Origin: a virus
Taxonomy: Duplodnaviria; Caudoviricetes
IMG/VR virus record: IMGVR_UViG_3300030419_006251
Coordinates: 32,001 to 96,000 of that record
DNA length: 64,000 bases
Direction: 5' to 3' (one strand)
Positions 1 through 33,485 of the stretch are shown piece after piece. Each line of letters opens with the position of its first letter. Position 1 is the stretch's first letter. The position numbers and the translations under genes are program-made. The notes beneath the pieces were generated by a model that was given only the letters and a program-made list of their open reading frames with translations, made no database searches and was not told where the DNA came from.

Positions 1-2096
1 CTAAGATCATAAACGGAATTCATCGTCTTGCGGTGATGCTTGATCAGTGCGCCTTCGGTATATTTCTTGGGAATCTCAACATAATTCGCCAATCCTCCCA
101 TGACCTCATATGGTTTGTCGTCCATGAGTCCAACTAATATTGTCCACTTTTCCCCTTTGATCGTGGTGTGGTGTATTCTGCATTCTAACTCTTTCGGCCT
201 GGAAGGTGCTGTGTGTTGTGGAAACAGTGCGTCAGTCTTGGTTTGAGTCACCAGAACTCCCGAGCGGGAACCGTCAACATAGACAGTAATTCCCTTGAGG
301 CCGCGGCGCCAACCTTCAAAATACAGATTTGATACGACTGCCGGATCTGTATCCTTTGGTAAGTTAATAGTTGAACTGATCGAATGATCGATAAACTTTT
401 GGATTGTAGCTTGTACTTCTATTCTGCGAAGCCAGTCGATCTGATCGCTTTCAACAAAAAAACTAGGCAATGTATCTGTGTCGTGTTCATTGATCCACTG
501 TTGAACATTGTGATGAAATACTGCATATTCTATCCATCGATCCCCCAGTTCGTCCACATAGTCAGGTTCAGTATCTGTCTCGTTGTGGGATAACTTTCTT
601 CGACGCGTATACTTGTTTCGAAATACTGGCTCTAGTCCCGAACTAGTTTGTGATAATATTGACACTGAACCTGTCGGAGCATTTGTCAAAATTGAAATAT
701 TTCTTCGACCCACTTGGCTCATAAGGGTTTGTATGTTTTGTGGCAAATTCTTAATGAATGCGTTATTACGCTCTTGCTGCCAGTTAAAAACTTCAAACGA
801 GCCTCGCTCTTCTGCCAGACGCGCACTCTCTAAATACGCCGAGTTTCTGAGTGTTTCGTAAATTTTTCCGATTACTGTGTTAGCTTTTTTGGAGTCGTAA
901 GCCAGATTCAAGCATGCAACTGCATCTGCGAGGCCGTGGGTACCCAGACCGGTTCTTCTGCCCGTCGCACACGCAGTCCGAAGTTTGAGCCACAGTTCTC
1001 TCTCGTCTGGAGTATCACATACTTCAATTATTTTATCTAATTTTTCTAGTTCAAGTTCTACCAAATCGTCTGATAGTCTCATTGCCATTGCGGCAACCTC
1101 GGACAACTTTGAAAAATCAAACTCAGCTTTTTTATTAAATTTGTTTTTGACAAAGCTCTTGAGATTAATGGAGATGAGCCGACAAGAATCGTGTGCCGAC
1201 AGGGGAATCTCTCCACAAGGATTAGTAGTGATCGTCTTAAAGCCTTGTTGTGCATATTCTTCTGCTGGTAGCGACTTGGTTATATTATCCCACATAAGCA
1301 GGCCGGGTTCTGCGGTTTTTGTAGCGGATTCCACAATAGAATCCCACAACTCCTTTGCTTGAACTTCTTTTGTGTGTGTTGGTTTGTCCGATCCAACGGG
1401 AAAATGCAGCGTAAATGTTCCGTCTTCTTCTACCGCCTTCATAAAACTGTCGCTTATCTTAACAGAGACATTTGCGCCGGTTACTTTAGTCAAGTCATGT
1501 TTCATAGTAATAAATTTTTCAATATCCGGATGACGGATATCCATAGTAATCATCAAGGCGCCGCGGCGGCCATTCTGACCTATCATCCTACAGATATACG
1601 AATAAAGATCGGCGAAAGACCACGCTCCAGTAGTAGTACCGGCAGAATTATTTACCGATGTTCCCTCTGGGCGCAAATCGCTAATATCAACACCGACGCC
1701 ACAACGACGCTTAAATAAATTAGCAAGATTTTTTCCGGAGTCAACAATTGAAGAGATGTTGTCTGCTGGTGATTCCACCACCACGCAATTTGATAAGGAT
1801 ACATTGACATAATTGTTTCCAATGCCCATCATGGGCGAACCTTGTGGCACGATATATCTAAAATTCTTAAGATATTCATAAATCTTGTCAACCGAGAGAG
1901 CGCGTTCGCTGTTAAAAGCTTGCTCGACCCTGGCAAACTCAGAAGCCATTCTTCTATGCATGTCGTCGGGCGTTTTTTCTACATACCTTCCTTTGTTATC
2001 TTTAAGGGCATACTTTGTCATCCAGACATTCGTTGCCAATTCATCATTCTCAAAATACTCTAAAGTTGCATCATGAACTTCTTTTTTACTATACAT
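1..2096 (-). CDS. nrdJ: Class II (adenosylcobalamin-dependent) ribonucleotide reductase, 3' end truncated by the window edge
   Basis: Absent from the ORF track. Manual translation from ATG at 2096 gives MYSKKEVHDATLEYFENDELATNVWMTKYALKD, with SLSNCVV, TTNPCGEIPL, RRTGLG, TNAPTGSVS and GLKGITVY motifs, and stays open to base 1. Confidence 0.88.
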   Translation of the reverse strand, partial: MYSKKEVHDATLEYFENDELATNVWMTKYALKDNKGRYVEKTPDDMHRRMASEFARVEQAFNSERALSVDKIYEYLKNFRYIVPQGSPMMGIGNNYVNVSLSNCVVVESPADNISSIVDSGKNLANLFKRRCGVGVDISDLRPEGTSVNNSAGTTTGAWSFADLYSYICRMIGQNGRRGALMITMDIRHPDIEKFITMKHDLTKVTGANVSVKISDSFMKAVEEDGTFTLHFPVGSDKPTHTKEVQAKELWDSIVESATKTAEPGLLMWDNITKSLPAEEYAQQGFKTITTNPCGEIPLSAHDSCRLISINLKSFVKNKFNKKAEFDFSKLSEVAAMAMRLSDDLVELELEKLDKIIEVCDTPDERELWLKLRTACATGRRTGLGTHGLADAVACLNLAYDSKKANTVIGKIYETLRNSAYLESARLAEERGSFEVFNWQQERNNAFIKNLPQNIQTLMSQVGRRNISILTNAPTGSVSILSQTSSGLEPVFRNKYTRRRKLSHNETDTEPDYVDELGDRWIEYAVFHHNVQQWINEHDTDTLPSFFVESDQIDWLRRIEVQATIQKFIDHSISSTINLPKDTDPAVVSNLYFEGWRRGLKGITVYVDGSRSGVLVTQTKTDALFPQHTAPSRPKELECRIHHTTIKGEKWTILVGLMDDKPYEVMGGLANYVEIPKKYTEGALIKHHRKTMNSVYDL

Positions 2097-19808: not shown

Positions 19809-22800
19809 TTAAGGTTCCTGTTGTTCTGCCGGAAGGTCTGAGGCAAAGGCCGAAGCATCTTCGACCGAGAACTCTGCACCAGCACTATCCATATTAGTGG
19901 GGTCTGTGTTTGCTGCAGCTAGCTTACAAATTTCTACCCGACCTGCGCTATGCCACACGCAGCGAAGAGTTGTTTCAAAAAATTCTGGGGTGATTGTGGA
20001 ATCAACATCAATCACAACATAGTAGCCGCCCAACCCAAGAAGCAGCGGAGCGTCTTCGTAGTCTGAATTCCAGTCCCCGGAACCAACACTGTCTGGGTTT
20101 ATGTAAATAAACTGACCCGGTAGGAAAAAGGTGTTTCCTTGCATAACGATTGTTGCTTCATATCTTCCTCTAAGTTGGTTGTATCCGAAGGCACCGTGGC
20201 CCAATAATCTTGATTCTGCTAGATATGCCTGATCTGTTCTGGTGAATTTGATACTTTTTACTAGTCCTTGGTTTTGGCCCAAATAAAAATGAAATATGCC
20301 TCGACTCAAATCGCCCGGCAGGGTTTCGAGGCCGGCATATTGCTCATACTCCTTTAAGTTATCTGTCATCGCGGCAGCTTCAGCATCCGATTCAAACCCC
20401 AATAAAGTGCTCGCCTCATATCCTCTAGCATACAAGGCTATAAAGTGATAAACATCTGTATTGTCTTCCTCGGTGGCATACAAAGTGGTCTTGCTGCTCT
20501 GAAGGCTTGCATTAATTTTGTCCAAGTCGTATCTCTTCTGTAAAGAAGATTTGTAAAAGTCTGGATCTCTAATAAATTCTAGCGGACTTTCATAGGCGCC
20601 ATTACTATTCTTATAAGCAGGTAAGGTAAAATTAGTAAATCCTATATCAAATATTTGTCTTGAGAATCTGGATGCTGGTGAGGCTTCCGCAATTTCAATT
20701 CCCTCGGTTGCGTTAACTCCCTCATAACATTTGTCTCCGCCAAGAATATCGAGAACCAAGGACTGTAAAGCCTCTTTCAGAAAAGATTTTAAACTATATG
20801 AATAAACACCAGGACGCATAATCTTATTTAGGAACCATTCGTTAAATCTGGTCAAGGTAATTGGAATATCTGCCAAATTAATGTATCTTGTTTTCATAGA
20901 CACCGGATCAAAATATTCTATGCAGCCAAGTATAATATTAATTTTATCTAGTTTGCGTTCTTTAAGTTGTCGTATGTCCTCAACAAAACTATCAATAGTG
21001 AGGGGTTCGCCGTCCGGGCCCTTTAGCTCTCCGTCTGTCCATAGGTCATCGAGGCCAAAGCTTCTATTCCATGTTGGTGCCCATTGGGCGCCGGTCTCTT
21101 CAGCAGTATACGCAAGATCTCTAAATCGTTCCATTGCGATGTAATGATCTTCCGGCTGAAACGGCTCCCTCCACAATGCTTTTCTGACTGCCCAGTCAAC
21201 TATGTCTCCAAAATATACAAAATTAATTCTATACCTACCGGCGGTGGGGTTTTCAGGAGTCGCGCGATTGCCGGCTTCGGGGTTGGTTGTGGTATCGAAG
21301 TACAATTCCTTTTCTACTGCTTCTTCGTTTAGTTTATTGAAGTCGGACCCCCCAGGATCTCTACCGTCGTGGCCTGCGCGCCAAGCATCTGAAGCTTCGC
21401 CACCGGGAGTATTCGCTGTGTTATTGTGTGTCGCGATATCGCCAATAGAACCGTTCATACTATTGACGCTAGCTGCAAAGGGATCGCCAGCTTTAATGTT
21501 TTCCGAATGGGCATATGTAAATGCAGCGTTACTGCGAGAGTACTCTGCACCGGTGGAGGCCCACGGTGGCAGTCCAGGGACGACGGCCATCCGGTTGCTC
21601 GCATCATATTGCGCGCCGACCATATCGGGACTAACAAAAACTGTTTTGATTCTCGGTATACCAGTGTCTTGGTCCACAAGACTTGTTGCGCCGTGTGGCG
21701 CTCCGTATGATAATGGAAATTTAGTAGGCTGGCCATACCCCGCATCGGTTATTCCGGTCCTTAATTTTCTACCTCGGAAGGCCGGCACCGGAGTACGCTC
21801 AGCGTGGGCGGTGGAGCCGCCGGCGGCTACAATATCATAACCCCACTGATCTGGTATGTGAGTCTGATCAGCCAACCAGTTCATGAGCGTCTGATATCCG
21901 ACGCCTCTAGATAGATTACGCATTTCTTCCAACAAGTTGTCCAATCTACCAACCATGTCGTCGTCTTCGTCTGATACCTCATCAGAACCTAGTTGAGTAT
22001 CTCTTGTATCTTCTTCTATTAATTCATTACCAAAAGCATCCGTCATTGTACTTACATTTCCGCCAGTTGTGACAACATGCGTTCTGCCTGTAGCTATAGC
22101 TTGACGCATTGCCTCAATCTGTGCTTGTCTTGTTCTCTCATAGATAGACAAAAATAAATCCGTGCTCGGATCTTCTAGCAGGCCTTCGATCGCAGCACGG
22201 TATCTGATATCTAAGCTGAGCGAACCATCCTCATTATAGGAGATCACATGATCGACAATCGTTAGGTACAGAATCACAGAAGCGCTTCGTAGTGCATTTC
22301 TTTGAGCTTCGCTAAACGGTGCACCGTCTTTAAATTCCCATCCGACGACTGCTTTTAATTCAAAGTACTCCGGATCGTATAGGTACATCCACTTGCAAAA
22401 ACCCTCTTCTTCGGAGCCCGATGTAGTTGCAGAATGGCTGGTACCTGTTGCGGCTGTTCGCATTATTAAATCAACAAACTGATAGTAGCCATCAATTTCG
22501 GTTGGATCTTCACCGTCTCTTGCGTGTGTCATGACTGGGAACGGCCCTTTCTTGTCAAACAATTCCTGAACATCGTTGAGATGTAGGCTCAAATTGGCTG
22601 ATAATAAGTTAGCTGCTTCGGCAGGATTTGTTCCTTCGTACTTCCAACTAAACCCTGTAATTCCAACTCCCGTGCCGCGTCCTGCGCGTGAATTCATCAT
22701 CCGCTCCACACGACGAAACTCGTTAGTCGGTCGTTCGGACTCATCTGCCATTATTCCCATGATATTATCAGGAAACAAAAGCTCCACATCCCAAGATTTG

Positions 22801-23147
22801 CCCGCGAGACTGACATCATCGCTGGTCGTTTGGCCTCTTTGGCCTACATAAGTCTTATACAATCTTACTTTTGGCACCAAAAAAGAAAGCTGGTATGGTG
22901 TTAAATCCATTGCGCCGGCCAAATCTGTTCTGCCTGTCAAGATGCTCATCATTAGCGTGGGAGAACCATACATCGCAGTGAACGCAGTATACTCGCAATC
23001 CTCGTTCAGTCCAGCTATGCCATCTTGTATTGGCGCTGAGGTGGCAGTGGACTGGCGAGTGGCCCAGTTCCGCTCGTCTCTTAACCAATGCAATAACCAA
23101 CATTGTTCTAGATTTTTTCGTCTTGTTATATTATCTTGTTCACCCAT
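19809..23147 (-). CDS. Baseplate hub-like protein (gp27/VgrG-like scaffold with large insertions)
   Basis: Position after the tape measure and tube initiators; C-terminal GLVKSIKF...EATIVMQGNTFFLPGQFIYI...GGYYVVIDVDSTI hub pattern. Confidence 0.6.
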   Translation of the reverse strand: MGEQDNITRRKNLEQCWLLHWLRDERNWATRQSTATSAPIQDGIAGLNEDCEYTAFTAMYGSPTLMMSILTGRTDLAGAMDLTPYQLSFLVPKVRLYKTYVGQRGQTTSDDVSLAGKSWDVELLFPDNIMGIMADESERPTNEFRRVERMMNSRAGRGTGVGITGFSWKYEGTNPAEAANLLSANLSLHLNDVQELFDKKGPFPVMTHARDGEDPTEIDGYYQFVDLIMRTAATGTSHSATTSGSEEEGFCKWMYLYDPEYFELKAVVGWEFKDGAPFSEAQRNALRSASVILYLTIVDHVISYNEDGSLSLDIRYRAAIEGLLEDPSTDLFLSIYERTRQAQIEAMRQAIATGRTHVVTTGGNVSTMTDAFGNELIEEDTRDTQLGSDEVSDEDDDMVGRLDNLLEEMRNLSRGVGYQTLMNWLADQTHIPDQWGYDIVAAGGSTAHAERTPVPAFRGRKLRTGITDAGYGQPTKFPLSYGAPHGATSLVDQDTGIPRIKTVFVSPDMVGAQYDASNRMAVVPGLPPWASTGAEYSRSNAAFTYAHSENIKAGDPFAASVNSMNGSIGDIATHNNTANTPGGEASDAWRAGHDGRDPGGSDFNKLNEEAVEKELYFDTTTNPEAGNRATPENPTAGRYRINFVYFGDIVDWAVRKALWREPFQPEDHYIAMERFRDLAYTAEETGAQWAPTWNRSFGLDDLWTDGELKGPDGEPLTIDSFVEDIRQLKERKLDKINIILGCIEYFDPVSMKTRYINLADIPITLTRFNEWFLNKIMRPGVYSYSLKSFLKEALQSLVLDILGGDKCYEGVNATEGIEIAEASPASRFSRQIFDIGFTNFTLPAYKNSNGAYESPLEFIRDPDFYKSSLQKRYDLDKINASLQSSKTTLYATEEDNTDVYHFIALYARGYEASTLLGFESDAEAAAMTDNLKEYEQYAGLETLPGDLSRGIFHFYLGQNQGLVKSIKFTRTDQAYLAESRLLGHGAFGYNQLRGRYEATIVMQGNTFFLPGQFIYINPDSVGSGDWNSDYEDAPLLLGLGGYYVVIDVDSTITPEFFETTLRCVWHSAGRVEICKLAAANTDPTNMDSAGAEFSVEDASAFASDLPAEQQEP

Positions 23148-23161
23148 AATGTAAACCTTTA

Positions 23162-23518
23162 TTAATACCCGTAATATTTTAAAATTTTATTCAATGGCAT
23201 AGGAATTTTTAACCTATCCCCTATTCTACAGTGTGCGTCGGTAGGTTTTAAATTATACCATGCAATTATCCACCAGTATCTAGAATCTCCATAATAATGC
23301 GCAGCCAATTTCCAATATTTGTCTCCATGAGACCAAACATATTCTACTTCGGCCAAGCGCCTTCTGAGAGCTTCGTCTGGATACCTCATCTCAGCGGTAA
23401 CGAAATGTTTAATTCTTTTTCGATTGCGCGATTCTCTAAGCTCCTCATATGCCTCTTCTGTGCCCGGCTGTCCTCCATTAACGAAGGTATTACGACCTCT
23501 AAATCTTGATCTTGACAT
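23162..23518 (-). CDS. LysM/gpX/gp53-like baseplate protein
   Basis: GDKYWKLAAHYYGDSRYWWIIAWYN...GDRLKIP. Confidence 0.75.
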   Translation of the reverse strand: MSRSRFRGRNTFVNGGQPGTEEAYEELRESRNRKRIKHFVTAEMRYPDEALRRRLAEVEYVWSHGDKYWKLAAHYYGDSRYWWIIAWYNLKPTDAHCRIGDRLKIPMPLNKILKYYGY

Positions 23519-23551: not shown

Positions 23552-24388
23552 TCACAACTCATCTCCATCGTCTCCGCCATCTGAACCATCCTTATTCGCA
23601 AACCCTGCACCATATGTATTTCCCCAGGCGCGTGTCCAAGTGTTGTTCGCGTCGACCAATATATTTGGAGAAGCCTGGTGCATTACTGAAAGGCTGCAAT
23701 TAAGATCATAAACTTTAGGATACAATACTCCTTCGCCATCTTCAAAAAATCCAGCATCGAGCCTAGGATTTATCCCGTAACTTTCAATTGCACAAATTAA
23801 ACCTTTTATTTTTGTATCACCCCAAAACTTTTTTTCTATAATAGCAGCATTTGGATATCCCGGCACATCATCTGGTATGCCAGATCTTATTAGGTTTGCC
23901 AGTTCTACCGTTACCAGCGGAGGGGCGCTAATGCACCATCTTCTGCTGCTCAAGGCGGCGCCGGTTCCTTGGGCGACATCGGCCTGATTAGGGTTAGACT
24001 GCGCCTGACTAGAATTCGAACCAAAGGAGCCGACAATATCAATCGAAGGTCCATAGCCCCTATTCTCATACACTGGATATAACATCTGTGCTAAAGCCGA
24101 GATCTTCATGACATTAGCTTTAGCCTCATCTTTGTCTTTTGCTACTGTTTGCCACGATACAGACATCATTCTTTCAGTATTGGCAAAGTGTCTAATCGGA
24201 TCTGCTTTTCCATATGGCTGTTCCGATGACCAAGCCGAATTAAAGTTATCGGTAAATCCAGTTATATATGCTTTGAAATCTGCGCGGACACCATTGTAAA
24301 TGCTTACAAACGACAGTGCCATACCGCTATTTTTAGCATATGTTTGCTCTACTGTAAATCCTTCAAATTGTATATTCTCGTTTGCCAT
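23552..24388 (-). CDS. Tail-tube initiator-like protein (gp48/gp54-like), canonical order
   Basis: FKAYIT...W..E.PYGKADPI..F..TER...VSW...MLYP...PPL...GFFE...LYPK; position after the tape measure. Confidence 0.6.
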   Translation of the reverse strand: MANENIQFEGFTVEQTYAKNSGMALSFVSIYNGVRADFKAYITGFTDNFNSAWSSEQPYGKADPIRHFANTERMMSVSWQTVAKDKDEAKANVMKISALAQMLYPVYENRGYGPSIDIVGSFGSNSSQAQSNPNQADVAQGTGAALSSRRWCISAPPLVTVELANLIRSGIPDDVPGYPNAAIIEKKFWGDTKIKGLICAIESYGINPRLDAGFFEDGEGVLYPKVYDLNCSLSVMHQASPNILVDANNTWTRAWGNTYGAGFANKDGSDGGDDGDEL

Positions 24389-24395
24389 AATTTAT

Positions 24396-25199
24396 TTATC
24401 CTTCTGATTGACTTTCTTCGGACTCAACCTCAAAAAATCCTACATCTAAATTTGGAGTAAAATTAAATCCATTAAGAGTACCAGTGAGTCCTCGGCCTTC
24501 GTCGGCTGGACCTTGTGATACTAGGTTCGTAAACTTGATAGCCATCATCGGCGGGGCCCTTAAAGATGTCGCACTTCCATGTTTTGTCTGTGTTGGATAT
24601 AACATTCTTATTAGATTTGTACATTTTCTTAAATTTTCGATTCCTTCTTCTTTGTTAGAGGCGATCAAGTCCCAACTTATTGTCATTGTTCTTTGCGTTC
24701 CCTGGAATATTTTAATCGGATCCATACGACCATACGCTCGCTCCGAACCCCATTTAGAACTAAAGTTATCGGCCAGAGAAGTTAAAAAAGCTTTAAAATG
24801 TAATCTAGTTTCAGTTGGGATATGCACTATAGTAACGAAGTTTTGCGCCTGATTTGCATAATTTGATTCCACCGTAGCGCCGGTGGAGAATAGCGGAGTG
24901 GGAGCCGCGCCGGCGAAAGCCTTGTAAATATCTCTAGAGTCTGATGGTGCGCCTCCGTAAGCGTTTCCAAAGGTGTCACTATAGTAATCAGCTTCAGAAG
25001 ATTTGCTTGAACCTGCGTGCTCTGTACTTAATTTAATATTGCTTTCATCATTGATATCTAGGCCATATGGAAAGCACTTCATATCCTCTGAATCATTTAG
25101 TTGTAGGCCCGTGAGACGGTCCCAGCCCAATAAATGATCGTGCACTACAGTAAGAGTGCACTTTACGGTCAACAATTTTGGTATCAGGCTTACAGACAT
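24396..25199 (-). CDS. Tail-tube initiator-like paralogue, apparently circularly permuted
   Basis: FKAFLT...YGRMDPI..FQGTQR...MLYP...PPM...GFFE core aligns with the neighbour; the IPK...CTLTVVH element lies at the N-terminus. Confidence 0.6.
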   Translation of the reverse strand: MSVSLIPKLLTVKCTLTVVHDHLLGWDRLTGLQLNDSEDMKCFPYGLDINDESNIKLSTEHAGSSKSSEADYYSDTFGNAYGGAPSDSRDIYKAFAGAAPTPLFSTGATVESNYANQAQNFVTIVHIPTETRLHFKAFLTSLADNFSSKWGSERAYGRMDPIKIFQGTQRTMTISWDLIASNKEEGIENLRKCTNLIRMLYPTQTKHGSATSLRAPPMMAIKFTNLVSQGPADEGRGLTGTLNGFNFTPNLDVGFFEVESEESQSEG

Positions 25200-25241: not shown

Positions 25242-27587
25242 CTATCCATGACCTTGCTCGCGAAGCCTCTGATCAACCAACGGCACAACCTGTCTTGCCA
25301 AGGTCGCGCCAGCCATCTTGAGAGTAACTTCCACATTCTGCGGGCCTTGATATCCGCCTCCGCCTCCACCTCCGCCGGTGCCGTGTGTAGTGGCCGCTAT
25401 TTGAGCTACAGCCCTAACTAATGCAGACAATTCATCTCCATTTGATACTGTGCTTGCTACTGCCAACTTATTTGCCTGTTCTACCAGTCTAGATACTTGC
25501 GCCACATCATCCGATGTTAATTGTACTGCTGCTTGAACTACTTGTGAAACCTTTGCACTGGCAAAAGTATTAATAGACGCCCTAAAATCCATGGACTTGT
25601 TTACATCGACTTCCTTGATTGCACTAGCGATGTTTCTAATTGAATTTGCAATCTTATCCATTATAGAGGTATCAACACTTTGTAATCTGCTGAGCGCCAT
25701 TACTGCGCCGGACATCGCTCCTCCAATTGGTAATGCCGCGCGGCCCATAGTATCAAAACCAGCTGCAGCTTCTCGGGCTGAGGTGCCTGCTCGACGCATT
25801 CTTGGCCCAAACGAAGCCATGGCATCATATAGAGAAGGGGAATGCTGTGGTTTTAAAATTGCTGCAGCCAACATGCCCACTGCTGCAACAAGGCCCAGTC
25901 CTCCCAAAAGGCCGCCGCCAATAAGTGCAAGTTGTAGGCCCCTGGCGGCGCCGGTGGCTAATGTCATTGCCGCTGCTTGCGCCTGTAATCCCATCGTTAC
26001 CATGGGTAATATTGCACCAACTACCTTAAAAGCCCCCCATGCATAAAACAGCTTTTGACCTAATTCTTTATAGCGATCAATATTTTGTGATATATGTGTT
26101 ACCATTCTCTGCAGCCATTCCATAAGTTCCATCAAGCTTGGAGCCAAGGCGGCCAAGGTTGCATTCCATTTCTGTTGCATACTCATTAAAGCCATCTGTT
26201 GTTGCGCCATTTGTTCTGCACTCATGGCGTTCGCATCGGCTGCTCTGGCACTCCTTTCCAAATGACCAGACATGAGCAATGCCAGTTCGCCAACACCCTG
26301 TAGGCCTGCGGCATCTGCGATTGCTCTCTTTTCATAGTAACTTAATTCTTGAAAACTTCCGGCAGCCATCATGATTCCTTCTCTTAGCTTGCGGAATCTC
26401 TCAGTAGGATCAACAGTCATTAACATATCAAGCGAGTTAAACAAGTCTCTACCCAAAATAGCATTAAGGCGACCTGCAGCTTCTGCCGCTCCTTCAAAAG
26501 TATCAAACTGACCAGTAATAGCCATCAGTTGGTTCATCGAAAGACCTGTATCTTTTGCAGCAATTCTCAAATCCTTAAAAACATCTACCATTTTACCGCC
26601 ATAAACTGATAGATCCATGCTCATTTCAGCAAACTCTTGCTGAACAATTGCTGGTGGGACATTTAAGGCCCTTGCGAAAGAATCTAAGCCTCGAACAGTT
26701 TGGGCCAATTGGCTTCCAGATTGTCCTAAGACTTTATTAAGCATTTGCATGCTTTGCGCGGCATCTTGTGCCGATGTGCCATTTTGCATTAATAAAGTTA
26801 CTGTATTGCCTAGACTTTGTTGTGCTCGGGCGGACATTCTGCTAAACTCCGATATACTGGTATATAATGCAGTATATGCTTCGCCCGTCTGTTCTGCGGT
26901 GACGCCGGCTCTAAGATTTGCCATAGTGACGGCTTCCATTTGTGATTTAAAATTGGCCAACTCGCCAGTGCTGGCTCCAATACTTCTTGCAAATGAGTAT
27001 TGCGCTTCGTTGAGTCCAACCGCAACATCCCAAGCCTTTTTCAGTATAACAAGAAATCCTTGCTCTATGAAATTGGCCGCAGTATTGGCTGCAGCACCCA
27101 TTGCACCAAATCCCGCTGCAGCGGCTTGGCTAGCGCTCCCCACACCCTGCAACTTTGAGGCCATGGCTATTAGTTGAAAGATAAAATTTTCAGTTGCGTC
27201 AGCATTAACTCCCAAAGCCCCCGTAAGGTTTCTGATGCCTTTGTTTGCGGCCTCAGTCATTCTATTTTGGTTTTGTTGCGCCTTAGTCAACTTATTTAAA
27301 GTGGTTGTGTGCTTTCTTAACCTAACCTCTAGAGCTTTAATTGCGTCTTTGTTGCCTTGATTGGCTGAAATCTGCTGTTGTATCAAAGCAATTTGCTTCT
27401 CCTGAGCCTTAATTAAGGCTCGGGTGGCGCGACTGGCATATTCTGAGGATTGTGCCGTACCTTTTGTCGCACTAGCCATCTGAGATAACGCGGCGGCGGC
27501 TTTTTTTCCACTGTTCTCTATGGACTTTAAAGCTTCGTCTAGTTCTTCGGCGGTTTTTACATCTTTTCCTGTTGGTTTATCAGCCAT
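25242..27587 (-). CDS. Tape measure protein
   Basis: 781 aa, Ala-rich and helical, downstream of tube and chaperone; FDTFEGAAEAAGRLNAILG pattern. Confidence 0.8.
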   Translation of the reverse strand: MADKPTGKDVKTAEELDEALKSIENSGKKAAAALSQMASATKGTAQSSEYASRATRALIKAQEKQIALIQQQISANQGNKDAIKALEVRLRKHTTTLNKLTKAQQNQNRMTEAANKGIRNLTGALGVNADATENFIFQLIAMASKLQGVGSASQAAAAGFGAMGAAANTAANFIEQGFLVILKKAWDVAVGLNEAQYSFARSIGASTGELANFKSQMEAVTMANLRAGVTAEQTGEAYTALYTSISEFSRMSARAQQSLGNTVTLLMQNGTSAQDAAQSMQMLNKVLGQSGSQLAQTVRGLDSFARALNVPPAIVQQEFAEMSMDLSVYGGKMVDVFKDLRIAAKDTGLSMNQLMAITGQFDTFEGAAEAAGRLNAILGRDLFNSLDMLMTVDPTERFRKLREGIMMAAGSFQELSYYEKRAIADAAGLQGVGELALLMSGHLERSARAADANAMSAEQMAQQQMALMSMQQKWNATLAALAPSLMELMEWLQRMVTHISQNIDRYKELGQKLFYAWGAFKVVGAILPMVTMGLQAQAAAMTLATGAARGLQLALIGGGLLGGLGLVAAVGMLAAAILKPQHSPSLYDAMASFGPRMRRAGTSAREAAAGFDTMGRAALPIGGAMSGAVMALSRLQSVDTSIMDKIANSIRNIASAIKEVDVNKSMDFRASINTFASAKVSQVVQAAVQLTSDDVAQVSRLVEQANKLAVASTVSNGDELSALVRAVAQIAATTHGTGGGGGGGGYQGPQNVEVTLKMAGATLARQVVPLVDQRLREQGHG

Positions 27588-28214: not shown

Positions 28215-29084
28215 TCATCGGTTAGGCCAAAAAAAGTCCGCCGTAAACGGTACCTCCAGTCGGGAATCTGTCCCGCACTCGGCGCACACAAAGGGCAGAG
28301 CCATATCAACATTTGGAACTAGACTATTATAAGCTACTCGCAAATATTGCGCATCCAAAGTAGGCATATTGTCAATAAAATTATTTAATTCATTTTTTGA
28401 ATTATATCCATCGACTGACACGACAAATTGTTTCATCTGTGTTGTGATTGGAGTTTCTTGCAGTCTATGTTTTTTACGATTCTCCACCACCTTCATTACA
28501 TGTTTCTCATCGTAACCATTTAACAGTCGAACTTCTGCTTGATATCCAGTTTTAGGCAACTTAATCAGAAATGTACTGTTCTCTGTTGGGCCCTCGATAT
28601 TCATATCAGCCCAAGAATCTCCATAGTTAATTCCAACCTCCATAAGATCAAAGTTGTTCGAACCTTCTGCACTACAGGCTGGGCAAATCGCCCTTGTTTC
28701 ATAATCAGCTCCGTATGCGTGTATCCTGGTTTGTACAAGAATTGCGTTTTTGTCGCCGATAAGAAGACTATTGACATCGACATTTTTGTCGACTAACACA
28801 CTCTGTATAAGTCGTTCGATGGCCAAGCCTTTCTTGAGCAAAGAGCGAGAAGTTAATATATCCTCGTCCTTAGCAGTCATGTGTCGAATCTCGACAACCT
28901 CTTGATTGTGCAGAGGATGATCCTCGGCGTAATATTTGCCCCGACTTGGCAACTCTACAAATTCGGTCGGAACAACAAATGATAAACCCTGCTTTTCTGC
29001 AGCGGCGTTAGCGGTCTGTACGGCCGCAGATGAAGGATCCGATGGGGCGGGGGCCCCAAGACGATCCCGATTGTTTCTAGACAT
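28215..29084 (-). CDS. Tail/baseplate assembly chaperone (gp26/gp51- or gpG-like)
   Basis: VELPSRG..Y, MTAKDEDIL, LLIGDKNAIL, CPAC and CAEC Zn ribbons; between tube and tape measure. Confidence 0.7.
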   Translation of the reverse strand: MSRNNRDRLGAPAPSDPSSAAVQTANAAAEKQGLSFVVPTEFVELPSRGKYYAEDHPLHNQEVVEIRHMTAKDEDILTSRSLLKKGLAIERLIQSVLVDKNVDVNSLLIGDKNAILVQTRIHAYGADYETRAICPACSAEGSNNFDLMEVGINYGDSWADMNIEGPTENSTFLIKLPKTGYQAEVRLLNGYDEKHVMKVVENRKKHRLQETPITTQMKQFVVSVDGYNSKNELNNFIDNMPTLDAQYLRVAYNSLVPNVDMALPFVCAECGTDSRLEVPFTADFFWPNR

Positions 29085-29150: not shown

Positions 29151-29837
29151 TTATTTCCAGATTCCAGTTGGGCCATAGTTTGTGATAACTTGAGACCTGT
29201 CGCTATCGTCGATGTCGCCGGCTGGACCATTTGAGCGCACATAGGTCGCCCAGTCATACCTTATTGATGTATCAACAGTAAGCATTTCATCACTTCCGTA
29301 ATCTAAACCAGATAGTCGAACACTTTTAAAGAAAGCATTATGCAGGGTCCATCTTTCAACTTCCAAACCATTAGCGTTGACAAGAACAATAGCAACATCG
29401 CCTAACTGATCAACCATAGCCTGTTTTCCTAAAGTCATTAGGTTCAGATCGACTCCTGTTCCCGCGCCTGTTTCCGGAGATGTAGACGGGCCAGCAGCAG
29501 ATGGAAAATTATATCCGGCTTGATTGAGCATTTGTAAAAATACATCTGCTGCTCCGTCGGCGCCGATGACATCAACAAAGGAAATACTAATTTCATTCCA
29601 CTCTACTCTGCCAGGATAATAAAACTTGTGATTAAGATATGTATGTTCTGTTTCTGAAACAGATAGAGACGGGCGGTCCACTCTTTTACATGCATACTGC
29701 AAAGAACTTCCTCCAGAAGAGATCGCGCCGCCGCCGCCATTGGTGGTCGATGGTGTGGATCCGAGGTTCGTAAACGAAACATACCATCTATAAGCTCTTT
29801 TAGGTTCTTGAGATGCGTTTCTCCAAAATTCTGCCAT
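29151..29837 (-). CDS. Tail tube protein (gp19-like)
   Basis: EPKRAYRW, YYPGRVEWNEISISFVD, ERWTLHNAF and LDYGSDEM...IRYDWA; follows the sheath. Confidence 0.88.
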   Translation of the reverse strand: MAEFWRNASQEPKRAYRWYVSFTNLGSTPSTTNGGGGAISSGGSSLQYACKRVDRPSLSVSETEHTYLNHKFYYPGRVEWNEISISFVDVIGADGAADVFLQMLNQAGYNFPSAAGPSTSPETGAGTGVDLNLMTLGKQAMVDQLGDVAIVLVNANGLEVERWTLHNAFFKSVRLSGLDYGSDEMLTVDTSIRYDWATYVRSNGPAGDIDDSDRSQVITNYGPTGIWK

Positions 29838-29879: not shown

Positions 29880-32800
29880 TTAGTCTTCAAAAGATGCTCC
29901 ACTTTTTGTAATAATAAAGTCAATTGCAATAAATTCAATCGCTCTAGCCGGCTTAAGGTAAACCTGAGCATAAAGAATGTTTCTATCGATCAGATCATCC
30001 GTGGTTGTGGTTTCATCTAACTTGACCAGATAATCGGTTAACCCGTAATTTGCCTTAACTCCCTCAAGGAAGGTATCAGCAGCTGATTTGAACTTGGCCC
30101 ATGTGTCGGAAACATTTGGCTCGAACAGTATTGTTGCTGCAATGATAGAAATTTCTTTCTTAACATGTAGAAGCAGACGGCGAACATTGATTCTATCCAA
30201 CGCGGAGGGAACCGCTTGAAGGGTCTTCTGACCAAACACCACAATTCCTTCTGCTGGGAACTTAGCAATTGGGTTGATGCTGTGCTCATACAAATCATCT
30301 CTCTGTTCAGATGTTAATCTAGTGTGCACATTCAACACCTTGAGGCCTGCTGCGCCGGTGTCTGAGCCCATGCTATCAAGCCCACCTCGTTTGAACCCGG
30401 CTGGGGCAAACCATGGTGCATTGTTCTCAATAGCTTGCGAGTATCCAAGAACACCGACAGCAATCGCAGAAGGCGGCAGCCAAAGTCTTCTTTTAGAACG
30501 AGAATCTTGAACCTGAACCCATGGATAATAAGCACAACCATAGCTGCTATCAGCCTCTCTGGATTTAAGATTGCTCACAATTGTCGTAACATTTCCGCGT
30601 CTTGCAGAGGCTGAATCACTAGATTCTGTACGCGGTACGAATCCACCTTCGATATCAATGATGGCCAAAGCATCCGCTCTATCTTCGCAGACCGAGAGGA
30701 GCTTATCTGTAAGGTTACGCTCAGTAAGCCCGGGCATAGAAAGGATATTGAATTCCACATACTCGGGATCTTGCAAAATCTCAGCTGCTCTCATGACGGT
30801 GTTATAAGCATAATTAAGTGTTCGGTCGCCACTACAATCATCAAGGAATGTGTTTCTAAAAGGTTCTGCTTCTTGCAGATCTAGTCCGTCATGACCACCA
30901 TGGAACATAGTAGTAAAGCGGTTGTAACCCATGTCGCAAAGGCCGCGGCGGTCATCAGAAAATGCGCCCGAAGCTGCTGTCCAGCTTCTCATCGCCGCAT
31001 CTGGGCGTACCGCAACAGAATTTTCGCGAGCGGAAGTTGTCTGACGGGAACCGGAAACATAATAAGCTCTGGGCTTCTGTATTTCAGAAGTGGCAGAACT
31101 AGGGCCAGCATTGTCTTCCAACTGAATATCGTCCAGTGTAAAGACCCAAGCATATTCCATATCATTTGCGTATGGGTCATCAACATATGAGGTATAATAA
31201 GATGGGACATGGCGCGCCACATCTTTCAGACTACGGTCAATGGAGTGAAGCGGGCCTTCGGTGCCTCTTGTTTTCTGGCGAGACCAGTCGACTCCAAAGC
31301 TTCTATGGTAATTTGCGTCCCATTTGTCTGCAATCTTAATAAGCTTTGGTGCGGGAAAATCAAACGATGCAGAATATGGCACGAGTCCGAGATGAAGTAG
31401 CGGCTGGGATGCCTCCGGCACATCTTTACCAGCCGTATGTGCAAAGTTTGCTAAGCCTACAACGGGGATGCTTCCCGATGCGTCAATAAATGCATTTGTG
31501 AATGCAGAACCGGTTGTTCCGGTAACTATTGCATTTTGCCCTCTGTGGTCCGCACCTCCGGAAAAGCCTGAGACCGTAAACTGTGAGATGTCGGTTGTTA
31601 TCGTCGTGTTTCCGGCATCTCCAGTCGTGGCCTGTGTAAATGTAATTGACTGAATACCATCTCCAGTACCAGTGATGGTGCCGGTTGTAATTTTGTCTTT
31701 TAGTGGCGAAGTAGCTGAGTTCAATGTATCTTTAAATTCATTTAATACAGTAGCTTGTGAATTTGAATTCAAGTTACACCTAACAGCGATACAAGTGCCT
31801 TCTGCCAATAAAGTTGCGGATGGGGTGCCTGTACCTAAATCAGAAGATGCGTCCAAAATAGTGCCTGAAGCAACTGCGTCAGTTTCCGAGGCGTCGGAAA
31901 GTATAAATATCCCTACCGTGCCATCTGCTGCTGTCATCTTAACATATTCACCTTCTGTGAATTGGTTGGCTGTTGCATCGTCGCCGTCTGCCGTTGTTAT
32001 TTTTCCAGTGGCAGCAACTGCATCCACTACATCATAGACGCTGGTAGAGCCGCTAACGACTGCGAATGATCGAAACCTGGGAGGCCCAAATACGCCAAAA
32101 GGTAGAAGCTCTGCTTGTGTGTTACCTCTGTCGACTTGCTCATTCATCTCAATGCGAATCAAGGAAGACATATTATCATATGTCCCATATTCTCTCATAA
32201 CAAGCTTGTCAGAATCCCACTCCACATATCTATCACCGATTAACTTCGCGATATAATTGTCGCTGTCCGGATCCAAAGTACAGCTGCTATAAATCTCAGT
32301 AGCAGTACCGGGAGTTTCTTTTGCTCCGAGAGGCCTCACCACGACATCAAAAGTACCATATGCATATTTATTAGGATGTGAAGCCCTCTTAATATTTTCA
32401 ATAGAAACTTTATAATTATTCTGTAACCATTCACCATGATTCATACCAATAAATCTAAATAATTTTTGCTGGTCCAGTGCATTATATGAAGCGGCGGCGC
32501 CGACATCTTGACTAATAAACCATCCGGTTCGGCCGTCTCGGAATGCTTCGCGGTGCTGTTGCCACTCGGCATTTGAATTACCTAGGCCGGCAACAAAGCC
32601 GACCTGATCGCCAGCCGAAGAAGAAATAGCATAAACTAATTCGTCCAGAGACTGCTCAAAGGATTCGCCGAGCCAGTATGTTAGTCTATCGGCAGAACTA
32701 TTGATGCTACCGTTTGTTCTGGTAGGATCTGTGTTAAATTGATTTCTAATATATCCATCAACGCCCGAATCGAAATGAAACTCTGCTTCTTTTACTGATT

Positions 32801-33485
32801 GTCCGGCACTATTTCTGATAACTGCTTTAAATCTTGCAAAGTTAGTATCCATAGATTGAAACATTTGAGCAGAGCCAGAAGTCACAGTCGAACCATCCAC
32901 TAGTGTACCAGTTAATTCAATCGATCCCTCAGTCAAGTACCACACTGCCGCGAGAGAGCCGGTATAGTGGTACGCCGTAACACCAGAAGTCGGTTGATTG
33001 GCGTCCGTTACTGAGGCCGAAGGGGCAATGAAGAGGCCAAATGCGCCGCCATTAGTCGCCTGGGCTGCAACATTAGTGTCGCCTGAAGAAACATGCGTCA
33101 CGGAAGTACCGGACGAATTCTTTGTATCCCAGCCGGCATAACCAGCAGTGGTTGCAGAGCCGTTCTGAGTGCCCATAAGCCTTACGATTGTGACCGGAGC
33201 AACGCCGGATTGCAGCCATGCTTCAGCAGCATATGCAGAATAGGTCGGACCACCGTGTGCGTCTCCTCGCCAACCATCGCGAGAAGAGCCGCCAGCATGA
33301 GGATCTCCAAAAAGTTCCGAAAACTCTTGATAGCTTGAAACTACAACCGGGCGCATACCTGGGCCCTGCTTAAATCGCCCGATAAGCGCTGGTCCCCTCT
33401 CTGGTCGTGTTGGGGTAAGTACAGACTGATCGATCTCCTTAAGAAAAATTCCTGGCGATACGAATCTATAACCTTTTACTGACAT
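29880..33485 (-). CDS. Contractile tail sheath protein (gp18-like) with insertion domains
   Basis: FVSPGIFLKEIDQS start; YGCAYYPWV, PWFAPAGFKRG, FGQKTLQ..SALDRINVRRLL and KPARAIEFIAIDF. Confidence 0.93.
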   Translation of the reverse strand: MSVKGYRFVSPGIFLKEIDQSVLTPTRPERGPALIGRFKQGPGMRPVVVSSYQEFSELFGDPHAGGSSRDGWRGDAHGGPTYSAYAAEAWLQSGVAPVTIVRLMGTQNGSATTAGYAGWDTKNSSGTSVTHVSSGDTNVAAQATNGGAFGLFIAPSASVTDANQPTSGVTAYHYTGSLAAVWYLTEGSIELTGTLVDGSTVTSGSAQMFQSMDTNFARFKAVIRNSAGQSVKEAEFHFDSGVDGYIRNQFNTDPTRTNGSINSSADRLTYWLGESFEQSLDELVYAISSSAGDQVGFVAGLGNSNAEWQQHREAFRDGRTGWFISQDVGAAASYNALDQQKLFRFIGMNHGEWLQNNYKVSIENIKRASHPNKYAYGTFDVVVRPLGAKETPGTATEIYSSCTLDPDSDNYIAKLIGDRYVEWDSDKLVMREYGTYDNMSSLIRIEMNEQVDRGNTQAELLPFGVFGPPRFRSFAVVSGSTSVYDVVDAVAATGKITTADGDDATANQFTEGEYVKMTAADGTVGIFILSDASETDAVASGTILDASSDLGTGTPSATLLAEGTCIAVRCNLNSNSQATVLNEFKDTLNSATSPLKDKITTGTITGTGDGIQSITFTQATTGDAGNTTITTDISQFTVSGFSGGADHRGQNAIVTGTTGSAFTNAFIDASGSIPVVGLANFAHTAGKDVPEASQPLLHLGLVPYSASFDFPAPKLIKIADKWDANYHRSFGVDWSRQKTRGTEGPLHSIDRSLKDVARHVPSYYTSYVDDPYANDMEYAWVFTLDDIQLEDNAGPSSATSEIQKPRAYYVSGSRQTTSARENSVAVRPDAAMRSWTAASGAFSDDRRGLCDMGYNRFTTMFHGGHDGLDLQEAEPFRNTFLDDCSGDRTLNYAYNTVMRAAEILQDPEYVEFNILSMPGLTERNLTDKLLSVCEDRADALAIIDIEGGFVPRTESSDSASARRGNVTTIVSNLKSREADSSYGCAYYPWVQVQDSRSKRRLWLPPSAIAVGVLGYSQAIENNAPWFAPAGFKRGGLDSMGSDTGAAGLKVLNVHTRLTSEQRDDLYEHSINPIAKFPAEGIVVFGQKTLQAVPSALDRINVRRLLLHVKKEISIIAATILFEPNVSDTWAKFKSAADTFLEGVKANYGLTDYLVKLDETTTTDDLIDRNILYAQVYLKPARAIEFIAIDFIITKSGASFED

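What the first reader, a model, noticed from the sequence alone, without database searches (positions are those of the whole stretch)
24396..25199. Circularly permuted tail-tube-initiator paralogue
Seen: the neighbour (23552..24388) ends P.LDAGFFEDGEGV-LYPKVYDLNCSLSVMH. This gene stops right after PNLDVGFFEVESEESQSEG, and the missing element SLIPKLLTVKCTLTVVH is its N-terminus. Inference: the last beta-strand of the tube-like fold has moved to the N-terminus, probably through tandem duplication and trimming. This would be a natural permutation in a core virion protein, or could enable strand swapping between rings.
Basis: partly seen in the sequence, partly recalled or inferred. Interest (0 to 1): 0.64.

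Follow-up and report, generated by a model that had tools for sequence, protein, structure and literature searches.

The report
Circularly permuted phage tail-tube initiator
One of two neighbouring baseplate genes of an uncultured 200-kb marine phage encodes a tail-tube-starter protein whose last ~100 residues, including a core beta-strand, have moved to the front of the chain. This is a real, conserved natural circular permutation of a virion protein, and I found no description of one in this protein class.

Summary

- **What moved:** in gene A (24396-25199, minus strand, 267 aa), residues 4-67 match positions 176-235 of a profile of 110 canonical relatives. Residues 110-260 match positions 18-174. 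The two pieces abut exactly but in swapped order. A version re-joined in silico aligns in one stretch.
- **Break point:** it lies in the hairpin loop between the GFFE motif and the LIPK strand. The moved part is the whole C-terminal module (strand, HxHxLGW, FPYG, tail), not only the strand.
- **Not an artefact:** about 18 metagenomic homologues and 6 viral contigs (5 IMG/VR loci plus L038) keep the layout, including a 42%-identical lineage with the same break point. The N-terminal strand is under purifying selection.
- **Rarity:** of the 150 best family representatives, only 2 are permuted. The closest sister lineage is canonical.
- **Gene context:** more distant relatives carry a single canonical gene between the tape measure and LysM genes. 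One relative is a fused tandem, which is the expected intermediate.
- **Fold:** AlphaFold2 puts the N-terminal strand into a sheet at pLDDT 92-93. Neighbour B and the core of A match tube initiators (P1, Afp7/Pvc7, A-1(L), T4 gp48).
- **Not settled:** whether the strand inserts in its own subunit or a neighbour's, and which ring A forms.

This is a new variant of a known kind, of moderate interest.

The parts
24396..25199 (-). Gene A (P0001, 267 aa): circularly permuted tube-initiator-like protein
   Evidence: ORF and translation. One-stretch match only to permuted homologues, two swapped stretches to the canonical profile. AF2 model with pLDDT 82 and pTM 0.79.
24999..25199 (-). A residues 1-67: relocated C-terminal module. 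It holds the beta-strand (residues 4-18), HDHLLGWD (20-27) and DMKxFPYG (39-46).
   Evidence: Matches canonical HMM positions 176-235 at 35 bits. It is among the most conserved parts of alignment A1. In the 27 codons around the strand, window vs L002 shows 17 synonymous and 4 non-synonymous codon differences. pLDDT is 92-93 and DSSP calls strands E4-7 and E9-18.
24882..24998 (-). A residues 68-106: variable linker. It is the former C-terminal tail, now tethered to the former N-terminus.
   Evidence: Low conservation and variable length in A1. pLDDT is 54-62. In some canonical relatives the A-profile match after the core runs up to position about 120.
24426..24881 (-). A residues 107-258: tube-fold core, ending in GFFE
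   Evidence: E=6e-30 to the B core. Canonical HMM 18-174 at 204 bits. VIA-align gives Z 7.5 to P1 9ay5_G and Z 6.7 to Pvc7 9qgl_7A, plus Mu and A-1(L) initiators.
24396..24425 (-). A residues 259-267 plus stop: short acidic new C-terminus at the opened hairpin loop
   Evidence: Every full-length homologue ends 4-20 residues after GFFE/GFFEV. In most of them this tail is D/E-rich.
23552..24388 (-). Gene B (P0002, 278 aa): canonical-topology paralogue. Its start lies 7 nt after A's stop.
   Evidence: Homologues sit next to A homologues in every locus examined. AF2 model. Z 8.4-10.8 to P1, Afp7, Pvc7, A-1(L) gp18 and T4 5iv5_BE.
23678..23728 (-). B residues 221-237: terminal beta-strand in its canonical place, the counterpart of A residues 4-20
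   Evidence: BLASTP E=0.004. DSSP strands E221-224 and E226-235 at pLDDT above 90. Structural alignments of B run through it, for example model 8..239 on 9ay5_G 9..183.
25242..27587 (-). Tape-measure-like protein (781 aa) directly upstream of A
   Evidence: Weak hit to phrog_28, tail length tape measure. The same gene order is seen in L022 and L038.
23162..23518 (-). LysM-like small baseplate protein (118 aa) directly downstream of B
   Evidence: phrog_7145, baseplate wedge subunit, E=3e-9. Its position is conserved in L022 and L038.
19809..23147 (-). 1112-aa protein with no family hit. By position it is probably a large baseplate component.
   Evidence: No Pfam or PHROG hit. Large ORFs of 894 aa and 1189 aa lie at the same position after the LysM gene in L022 and L038, and their N- and C-terminal stretches look alike on reading; I ran no alignment.
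29151..29837 (-). Tail tube protein (228 aa), context only
   Evidence: phrog_4542, tail tube, E=3e-23.
29880..33485 (-). Tail sheath protein (1201 aa), context only
   Evidence: phrog_23, E=2e-58. PF17482 and PF04984.

Best explanation
Gene A encodes a structural baseplate protein with the tail-tube fold, a 'tube initiator or cap' that forms a ring between the hub and the tube. It is a genuine, evolutionarily fixed circular permutant.

In canonical relatives the chain runs N-terminal helix, core strands, GFFE, hairpin loop, terminal strand (LIPKxxxxxCTxTVxH), HxHxLGW, FPYG, variable tail. In A the chain is cut in the hairpin loop. The whole post-loop module now comes first and is joined through its old tail to the old N-terminus.

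The N-terminal strand most likely inserts in cis, in its own subunit. It would lie next to strand 238-249 and restore the ancestral sheet. The new termini, including a short acidic C-terminal tail, then sit at the opened loop.

The permutant most likely arose in a lineage of about 200-kb marine T4-like phages by tandem duplication, in-frame fusion and trimming of both ends. A second, diverged canonical copy (B) was kept, so these phages probably have two stacked initiator rings, as T4 has gp48 and gp54.

Shown: the sequence-level permutation, its conservation, the selection on it, its rarity, and the fold class. Inferred: cis insertion, ring formation, the order of the rings, and the duplication route.
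For: 1. Swapped, exactly abutting matches to a 110-sequence canonical profile: HMM 176-235 on A4-67 and HMM 18-174 on A110-260. The in-silico un-permuted A, and 13 further homologues treated the same way, align in one stretch and score 7-12 bits higher.
2. Of the 150 best representatives among 4254 family clusters, 2 are permuted, 117 have the module after the core, and 23 show the core only (all but a truncated fragment with 40-157 residues after it). Eight were flagged 'double': P0123 is a true tandem, and at least four of the other seven are canonical proteins whose core hit is split by an insertion.
3. The layout is kept in 17 homologues of 47-57% identity, in IMG/VR loci L001-L005, and in P0077/L038 (42% identity, a 205-kb contig) with the same break point, HMM 173|177.
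4. Purifying selection acts on the N-terminal strand: 17 synonymous against 4 non-synonymous codon differences in window vs L002.
5. In a tree of the cores the permuted clade is monophyletic (support 0.92; 0.66 when P0077 is included). Its sister P0174/P0100 is canonical and carries a very similar module at its C-terminus (support 0.91).
6. In the AF2 model of A, residues 1-20 have pLDDT 92-93 and are called strand by DSSP, which needs sheet partners. Order-dependent alignments to ferredoxin-like folds span residues 4..253 with the N-terminal strand as beta-1.
7. Against the same solved chains, B aligns through the terminal strand (9ay5_G 9..183, Z 10.8; 9qgl_7A 5..162, Z 9.6). A stops 17-22 target residues earlier (9..166, Z 7.5; 5..140, Z 6.7).
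8. The gene order tape measure, A, B, LysM, large protein, with tube and sheath upstream, mirrors T4 genes 29-48-54.
9. P0123 is a natural fusion of two complete units, and distant relatives carry a single canonical gene.
Against: - No coordinates were available, so the N-terminal strand's place in the sheet rests on indirect evidence: DSSP, pLDDT and alignment ranges.
- An AF2 monomer model cannot tell cis from trans insertion.
- Only about 18 sequences inform the strand-to-core contacts.
- Foldseek with A's model found no tube protein at all. VIA Z-scores for A's core are 5.5-7.5, below the tool's caution line of 8.
- No sequence family links A or B to T4 gp48 or gp54.
- The grouping of A and B in one 33-leaf clade has weak support, 0.65.
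- No virion, expression or proteomic data exist for this uncultured phage.
Confidence: 0.8

Rival explanations
1. Trans complementation (donor-strand exchange). The permutation frees the terminal strand on a roughly 90-residue leash (residues 19-106). The strand then inserts into the neighbouring A subunit of the same ring, or into another ring, and locks the assembly. Each core on its own is incomplete.
For: The hairpin is opened, and residues 22-29 and 61-100 have low confidence (pLDDT 45-62) and vary in length. That leash could reach a neighbour. Ring-forming tube proteins already share a continuous barrel between subunits (general knowledge of the fold).
Against: The AF2 monomer model places the strand confidently within its own chain. 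B keeps its own terminal strand, so B has no empty slot to receive it. The ferredoxin-like alignments suggest the strand is central in the sheet rather than at an edge, though they give ranges only. Nothing tested here favours trans over cis.
Confidence: 0.14
2. Artefact: a misassembly, a wrong start codon or a decaying gene gives a false appearance of permutation.
For: The phage is known only from metagenome assemblies. Read coverage could not be examined. Some database homologues (P0015, P0017, P0019) were called from internal Met codons.
Against: The same layout and break point occur in about 18 proteins from ENA, JGI, Logan, NCBI and Tara sources, in 5 IMG/VR loci, and in a 42%-identical lineage on a 205-kb contig. 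Synonymous changes dominate in the N-terminal strand. The reading frame is intact and tightly coupled to B.
Confidence: 0.02
3. The N-terminal module has a new job, such as binding the tape measure, the hub or the LysM protein, and no longer completes the fold. The core would work as a truncated tube domain.
For: The HDHLLGW and FPYG motifs that follow the strand are as conserved as the strand itself and have no known function. In phage A-1(L), the part of the initiator beyond the tube domain binds the tail of the LysM protein (PMC10966104).
Against: The strand keeps the alternating hydrophobic pattern and the Cys/Thr/Val/His residues of the canonical terminal strand. AF2 models it as sheet at pLDDT above 90. 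In canonical relatives the motifs sit in the same order right after the strand, so keeping them needs no new function.
Confidence: 0.04

Closest known systems
Phage T4 gp48 (baseplate tail tube cap) and gp54 (tail tube initiator)
   Same: Two tandem tube-fold genes lie right after the tape-measure gene: T4 genes 29-48-54 against tape measure-A-B here. B's model aligns to the T4 baseplate chain 5iv5_BE at Z 8.7 over 148 residues. I take that chain to be gp48 from its residue numbering up to 358. The ESM Atlas's nearest named cluster carries PF11091 T4_tail_cap in 15% of its members, which is only a lead.
   Different: No sequence relation is detectable. hhalign of the canonical profile against T4 gp54 and gp48 gives probabilities of 0.3% and 0.5%. 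No Pfam or PHROG model is hit. I found no report of a permuted topology for gp48 or gp54.
Tube initiators of other contractile systems: Afp7 (6rao_G), Pvc7 (9qgl_7A, 6j0n_b), CIS initiators (7b5h_AK, 9gtp_M, 7aeb_M), cyanophage A-1(L) gp18 (8kea), and the phage P1 (9ay5_G, 9vzk_2) and Mu (9ki1_0) baseplate tube proteins
   Same: They share the tube-fold domain: Z 8.3-10.8 for B and 5.5-7.5 for A's core. They also share the partnership with a LysM protein and the hub (PMC10966104).
   Different: All of them align in sequence order through the terminal strand, as B does. A lacks that strand at its C-terminus and supplies it from the N-terminus. Sequence identity is 7-14%. The second domains differ.
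Canonical members of the same unnamed metagenomic family, such as P0081, P0038, P0100/P0174 and the single-copy gene in L022
   Same: 36-45% identity to A's core. They carry the same module motifs (LIPK strand, HxHxLGW, FPYG) and the same gene position between the tape measure and LysM genes.
   Different: Their module follows the core instead of preceding it. The distant loci I fetched each show only one copy of the family.
Textbook natural circular permutants explained by duplication, fusion and trimming, such as swaposins versus saposins and permuted DNA methyltransferases (from my own knowledge, not checked here)
   Same: Cyclic reordering of an otherwise intact domain. A fused tandem form exists in the family (P0123).
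   Different: Here the protein is a ring-forming virion component. The cut also opens a beta-hairpin that is probably part of the tube sheet.

Membership tests
Tail-tube-fold baseplate proteins (tube initiator or cap: T4 gp48/gp54, Afp7/Pvc7, A-1(L) gp18) | Tube-fold beta domain shown by structural comparison | tested here: met
   B: Z 8.4-10.8 with 139-157 residues aligned to P1, Pvc7, Afp7, A-1(L) and T4 chains, and Foldseek E down to 7e-5. A's core: Z 5.5-7.5, and the top 14 rows are all tail-tube or baseplate chains of phages, tailocins and contractile injection systems. A's core is homologous to B at E=6e-30.
Tail-tube-fold baseplate proteins (tube initiator or cap) | Gene lies between the tape-measure gene and the LysM/hub baseplate genes of a contractile tail module | tested here: met
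   Order on the minus strand: sheath, tube, PF12322 protein, 116-aa ORF, tape measure, A, B, LysM, 1112-aa protein. The same order from the 115-aa ORF (tape measure in L022) to the large protein is seen in L022 and L038.
Tail-tube-fold baseplate proteins (tube initiator or cap) | Sequence membership in a curated family (PF11091 T4_tail_cap, PF06841 Phage_T4_gp19, or PHROG tube-initiator families) | tested here: not met
   A and B hit no Pfam model at E<=0.1 and no PHROG at E<=0.01. None of 67 canonical members hits Pfam. None of 10 hits a relevant PHROG. hhalign to T4 gp48 and gp54 gives probability below 1%.
Tail-tube-fold baseplate proteins (tube initiator or cap) | Forms a hexameric ring between the hub and the first tube ring in the virion | not testable with these tools
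   The phage is uncultured, and no multimer prediction or virion structure is available.
Natural circular permutant of a protein domain | Two segments are homologous to the canonical protein in cyclically swapped order, with nothing lost or duplicated | tested here: met
   HMM 176-235 on A4-67 and HMM 18-174 on A110-260. The un-permuted construct aligns in one stretch, HMM 19-235, at 251.6 bits.
Natural circular permutant of a protein domain | The canonical order is ancestral and the permuted order is derived and inherited | tested here: met
   2 permuted against 117 module-after-core among the 150 best representatives. The permuted clade is monophyletic with a canonical sister. Solved relatives are canonical. 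Both permuted lineages share the break point.
Natural circular permutant of a protein domain | The relocated element takes the same place in the three-dimensional fold | tested here: inconclusive
   The strand has pLDDT 92-93 and DSSP calls it sheet. Alignment ranges fit a position next to strand 238-249. No coordinates were available, so no permutation-aware superposition was possible.

The most novel reading that the evidence does not exclude
Opening the last hairpin turns the terminal strand into a tethered donor strand. It completes the sheet of a neighbouring subunit and covalently threads the initiator ring together. That would be a strand-exchange lock in a phage baseplate which canonical initiators lack, and it might explain why this lineage needed a second, canonical ring (B).
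Probability: 0.14. Interest if true: 0.75.

Novelty: new variant of a known kind. Interest (0 to 1): 0.55.

Why it matters
**A well-documented natural permutation.** All the stages are visible in sequence data:
- single-copy canonical genes;
- a fused tandem;
- a canonical sister lineage;
- a permuted clade that has persisted down to 42% identity.

**It shows the fold tolerates a cut.** The tube fold is the building block of phage tails, tailocins, type VI secretion and extracellular injection systems. This case shows it can be cut in the last hairpin with the old termini joined. That marks a place where new chain ends can be put, which is of use to people who engineer tube or initiator proteins for fusions.

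**It affects how these genes are found and annotated.**
- Order-dependent fold search failed on the permuted protein: Foldseek returned RAMP-like ferredoxin folds instead of tube proteins.
- The whole family has 4254 representative clusters at E<=1e-3, yet none of the 69 members scanned against Pfam (A, B, 67 canonical) and none of the 12 scanned against PHROGs has a matching model for it. Baseplate annotation of these abundant marine phages is therefore blind at this position.

Tried and rejected
**Searches that gave nothing**
- Pfam and PHROGs for A, B and canonical members gave no relevant hit.
- tblastn of A and of canonical P0081 against 50,697 phage records gave no match. No cultured phage in that collection carries the family at this sensitivity.
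- A PDB sequence search with the B profile gave only chance hits at E about 0.2.
- hhalign of the canonical profile against T4 gp48 and gp54 showed no relation.
- Foldseek with A's model returned only weak Csm3/RAMP and other ferredoxin-like hits. I read these as a side effect of the permuted strand order, not as kinship.
- Paper searches for protein-level permutation of tube or initiator proteins returned only papers on circularly permuted genomes.
- Earlier notes of this scan had nothing on this gene, by words or by sequence.

**Steps that could not be completed**
Whether that lineage also has a B copy, and so the order of duplication and permutation, stays open.
- Direct superposition of the A and B models: the tools expose no coordinates.

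**Ideas considered and dropped**
- A extra copy of the strand rather than a moved one: A ends 10 residues after GFFE and the HMM positions abut.
- Recombination with B as the source of A's module: A's module and core are both closer to canonical single-copy relatives than to B.
- A frameshift or readthrough that fuses A to B: there is no need and no signal for it, and the ATGA overlap in relatives points to ordinary translational coupling.

Full report
**What is in the sequence**

Two tandem ORFs lie on the minus strand. Gene A is 24396-25199 (267 aa, P0001). Gene B is 23552-24388 (278 aa, P0002), and 7 nt separate A's stop from B's start.
- A begins MSVSLIPKLLTVKCTLTVVH and stops 10 residues after a GFFE motif.
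- B carries GFFE, six residues, then LYPKVYDLNCSLSVMH at residues 213-237, and continues for 41 more residues.
- BLASTP aligns the cores (A107-257 with B10-216) at E=6e-30. It aligns A5-20 with B222-237 at E=0.004.

**Context**

The window is bases 32001-96000 of a 200,760-bp IMG/VR virus record. A and B are the only members of the family in that record. On the minus strand the order is:
- sheath (29880-33485) and tube (29151-29837);
- a PF12322 'T4_baseplate' protein (28215-29084) and a 116-aa ORF;
- a tape-measure-like protein (25242-27587);
- A, then B;
- a LysM-like small baseplate protein (23162-23518);
- an unannotated 1112-aa protein.

This mirrors T4 genes 29-48-54. Earlier notes of this scan also describe the genome as an uncultured marine T4-like phage.

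**The permutation is real and precise**

A has no Pfam, PHROG or cultured-phage match. It does belong to a large metagenomic family: a profile of A and 16 homologues finds 4254 representative clusters at E<=1e-3.

Among the 150 best representatives:
- 2 (P0014, P0077) match the profile in one stretch, so they are permuted;
- 117 have profile positions 4 to about 50-120 (A's N-terminal part) matching after the core, with i-E down to 1e-11;
- 23 show only the core at my threshold, all but the truncated fragment P0174 with 40-157 residues after it;
- 8 were flagged 'double' by my script. P0123 is a true tandem. At least four of the other seven are canonical proteins whose core hit is split by an insertion.

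I built the reverse test from 110 canonical proteins. Their profile hits A as two pieces that abut in profile coordinates but are swapped in the protein: HMM 176-235 on A4-67 (35 bits) and HMM 18-174 on A110-260 (204 bits). When residues 101-267 are placed before residues 2-100 in a script, the protein aligns in one stretch (HMM 19-235, 251.6 bits). Thirteen further homologues behave the same way.

The cut therefore lies in the hairpin loop between GFFE and the LIPK strand. What moved is the whole post-loop module: the strand, HDHLLGWD, DMKxFPYG and the tail. Nothing was lost and nothing is duplicated.

**It is not an artefact**

- Seventeen homologues of 47-57% identity, from ENA, JGI, Logan, NCBI and Tara sources, share the layout. 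The N-terminal module is among the best conserved parts, and all of them end 4-20 residues after GFFE.
- IMG/VR loci L001-L004 keep permuted A followed by B, with an ATGA overlap in L001, L002 and L004 and an 18-nt gap in L003.
- A 205-kb contig (L038) carries a 42%-identical A' with the same break point (HMM 173|177). It has the same order: 115-aa ORF, tape measure, A', B', LysM, 1189-aa protein.
- In the 27 codons around the strand, window and L002 differ at 21 codons, and 17 of those differences are synonymous.

**Direction and origin**

Solved relatives and nearly all family members are canonical, so the permuted order is the derived one.
- In a maximum-likelihood tree of the cores, the permuted proteins form one clade (support 0.92, or 0.66 when P0077 is included).
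- The sister of that clade is P0174 (support 0.91). P0174 and the 75%-identical fragment P0100 together describe a canonical protein. Its C-terminal module, LLPKVLNLKCTLSVTHRHPIGWDRDTG, is strikingly like A's N-terminus.
- B and its homologues fall in the same 33-leaf clade, but with weak support (0.65).
- The distant loci L010-L035 each show a single family member. In L022 the order is tape measure, one canonical 227-aa gene, LysM, 894-aa protein.
- A is closer to these single-copy genes (36-45% identity) than B is (24-30%). A is therefore the conservative copy apart from its topology, and B is the diverged one.
- P0123 (443 aa) is a natural fusion of two complete units: HMM 14-192 on residues 12-193 and HMM 39-215 on residues 268-436. 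This is the intermediate that the duplication, fusion and trimming route requires.

That route is thus plausible but inferred. I could not recover the gene context of the sister lineage.

**Structure**

*B.* AF2 on a 20-sequence alignment gives pLDDT 65, with the core and the terminal strand above 90. The model matches tube initiators and caps: P1 9ay5_G at Z 10.8, Pvc7 6j0n_b at 10.5, Afp7 6rao_G at 9.9, A-1(L) 8kea_R at 9.7, and T4 5iv5_BE at 8.7.

*A.* AF2 on 132 sequences gives pLDDT 82 and pTM 0.79. Residues 1-20 have pLDDT 92-93. DSSP calls E4-7 and E9-18 strand, which requires hydrogen-bonded partners elsewhere in the chain.

*Comparing the two.*
- The secondary-structure elements of A and B correspond in cyclic order.
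- Against the same targets, B aligns through the terminal strand (9ay5_G 9..183; 9qgl_7A 5..162). A stops 17-22 target residues earlier (9..166; 5..140).
- A's weaker hits to ferredoxin-like domains span residues 4..253 with the N-terminal strand as the first strand. This fits a strand lying between 238-249 and 162-179. It also explains why Foldseek missed the tube fold.
- I could not superpose the two models, because no coordinates are exposed. Equivalence in three dimensions is therefore supported but not proven.

**How it most likely works**

A is a ring-forming baseplate protein whose sheet is completed by its own N-terminal strand.
- The former free, variable C-terminal tail has become a tethered linker (residues about 47-106, low confidence).
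- The new chain ends sit at the opened hairpin, with a short, mostly acidic C-terminal tail.
- Together with B, A probably gives this phage lineage two stacked initiator rings. Which ring touches the hub is unknown.

The main rival is insertion of the strand into a neighbouring subunit, which a monomer model cannot exclude. I put it at about 14%.

**Comparison with what is known**

At the fold level and by gene position, A and B belong with tube initiators and caps. No curated sequence family is met. The only pointer to PF11091 is an ESM Atlas lead.

In four full-text searches I found no description of a protein-level circular permutation in tail-tube-fold proteins. That library lacks most subscription journals, so the absence is weak evidence.

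Circular permutation by duplication is a well-known evolutionary route in general. I therefore rate this a new variant of a known kind, of moderate interest.

Noticed in passing
P0123 (metagenomic protein, 443 aa; no locus): A natural single-chain fusion of two complete canonical units of the family: core plus terminal strand, a linker, then core plus strand plus FPYS tail. It is the textbook intermediate for permutation by duplication and comes from a distant lineage.
   Followed up: partly
whole family (representatives P0078-P0224; loci L010-L035): The gene family between the tape-measure and LysM genes of these marine phages has 4254 representative clusters at E<=1e-3. None of the 69 members scanned against Pfam and none of the 12 scanned against PHROGs matches a model for it, and tblastn of two members found nothing in 50,697 phage records.
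   Followed up: partly
window 19809-23147 (-): A 1112-aa protein directly after the LysM gene has no Pfam or PHROG hit. Large ORFs of 894 aa (L022) and 1189 aa (L038) sit at the same position in relatives. It is probably a large unannotated baseplate component.
   Followed up: no
window 23942-24055 (-), B residues 112-149: B carries a low-complexity insertion rich in Ser, Asn, Gln and Ala inside the tube core. AF2 models it at pLDDT below 50, its length varies among B homologues, and A lacks it.
   Followed up: no
window 25242-27587 (-): The tape-measure-like protein has a run of eight glycines about 40 residues before its C-terminus. It matches a tape-measure PHROG only weakly (E=0.003).
   Followed up: no
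model m0ff8d56347b3 (gene A): The permutation gives the tube-fold core the strand order of a ferredoxin-like fold (beta-alpha-beta-beta-alpha-beta). Foldseek's top hits were therefore Csm3/Cas7 RAMP proteins and other ferredoxin-like folds rather than tube proteins. This is a caution for fold-based annotation.
   Followed up: partly
L022 1362-2042 (+): A relative on a 175-kb contig has an ORF that, read by eye, looks like a methyltransferase, just upstream of the baseplate/tape-measure block. The window has no counterpart at that position.
   Followed up: no
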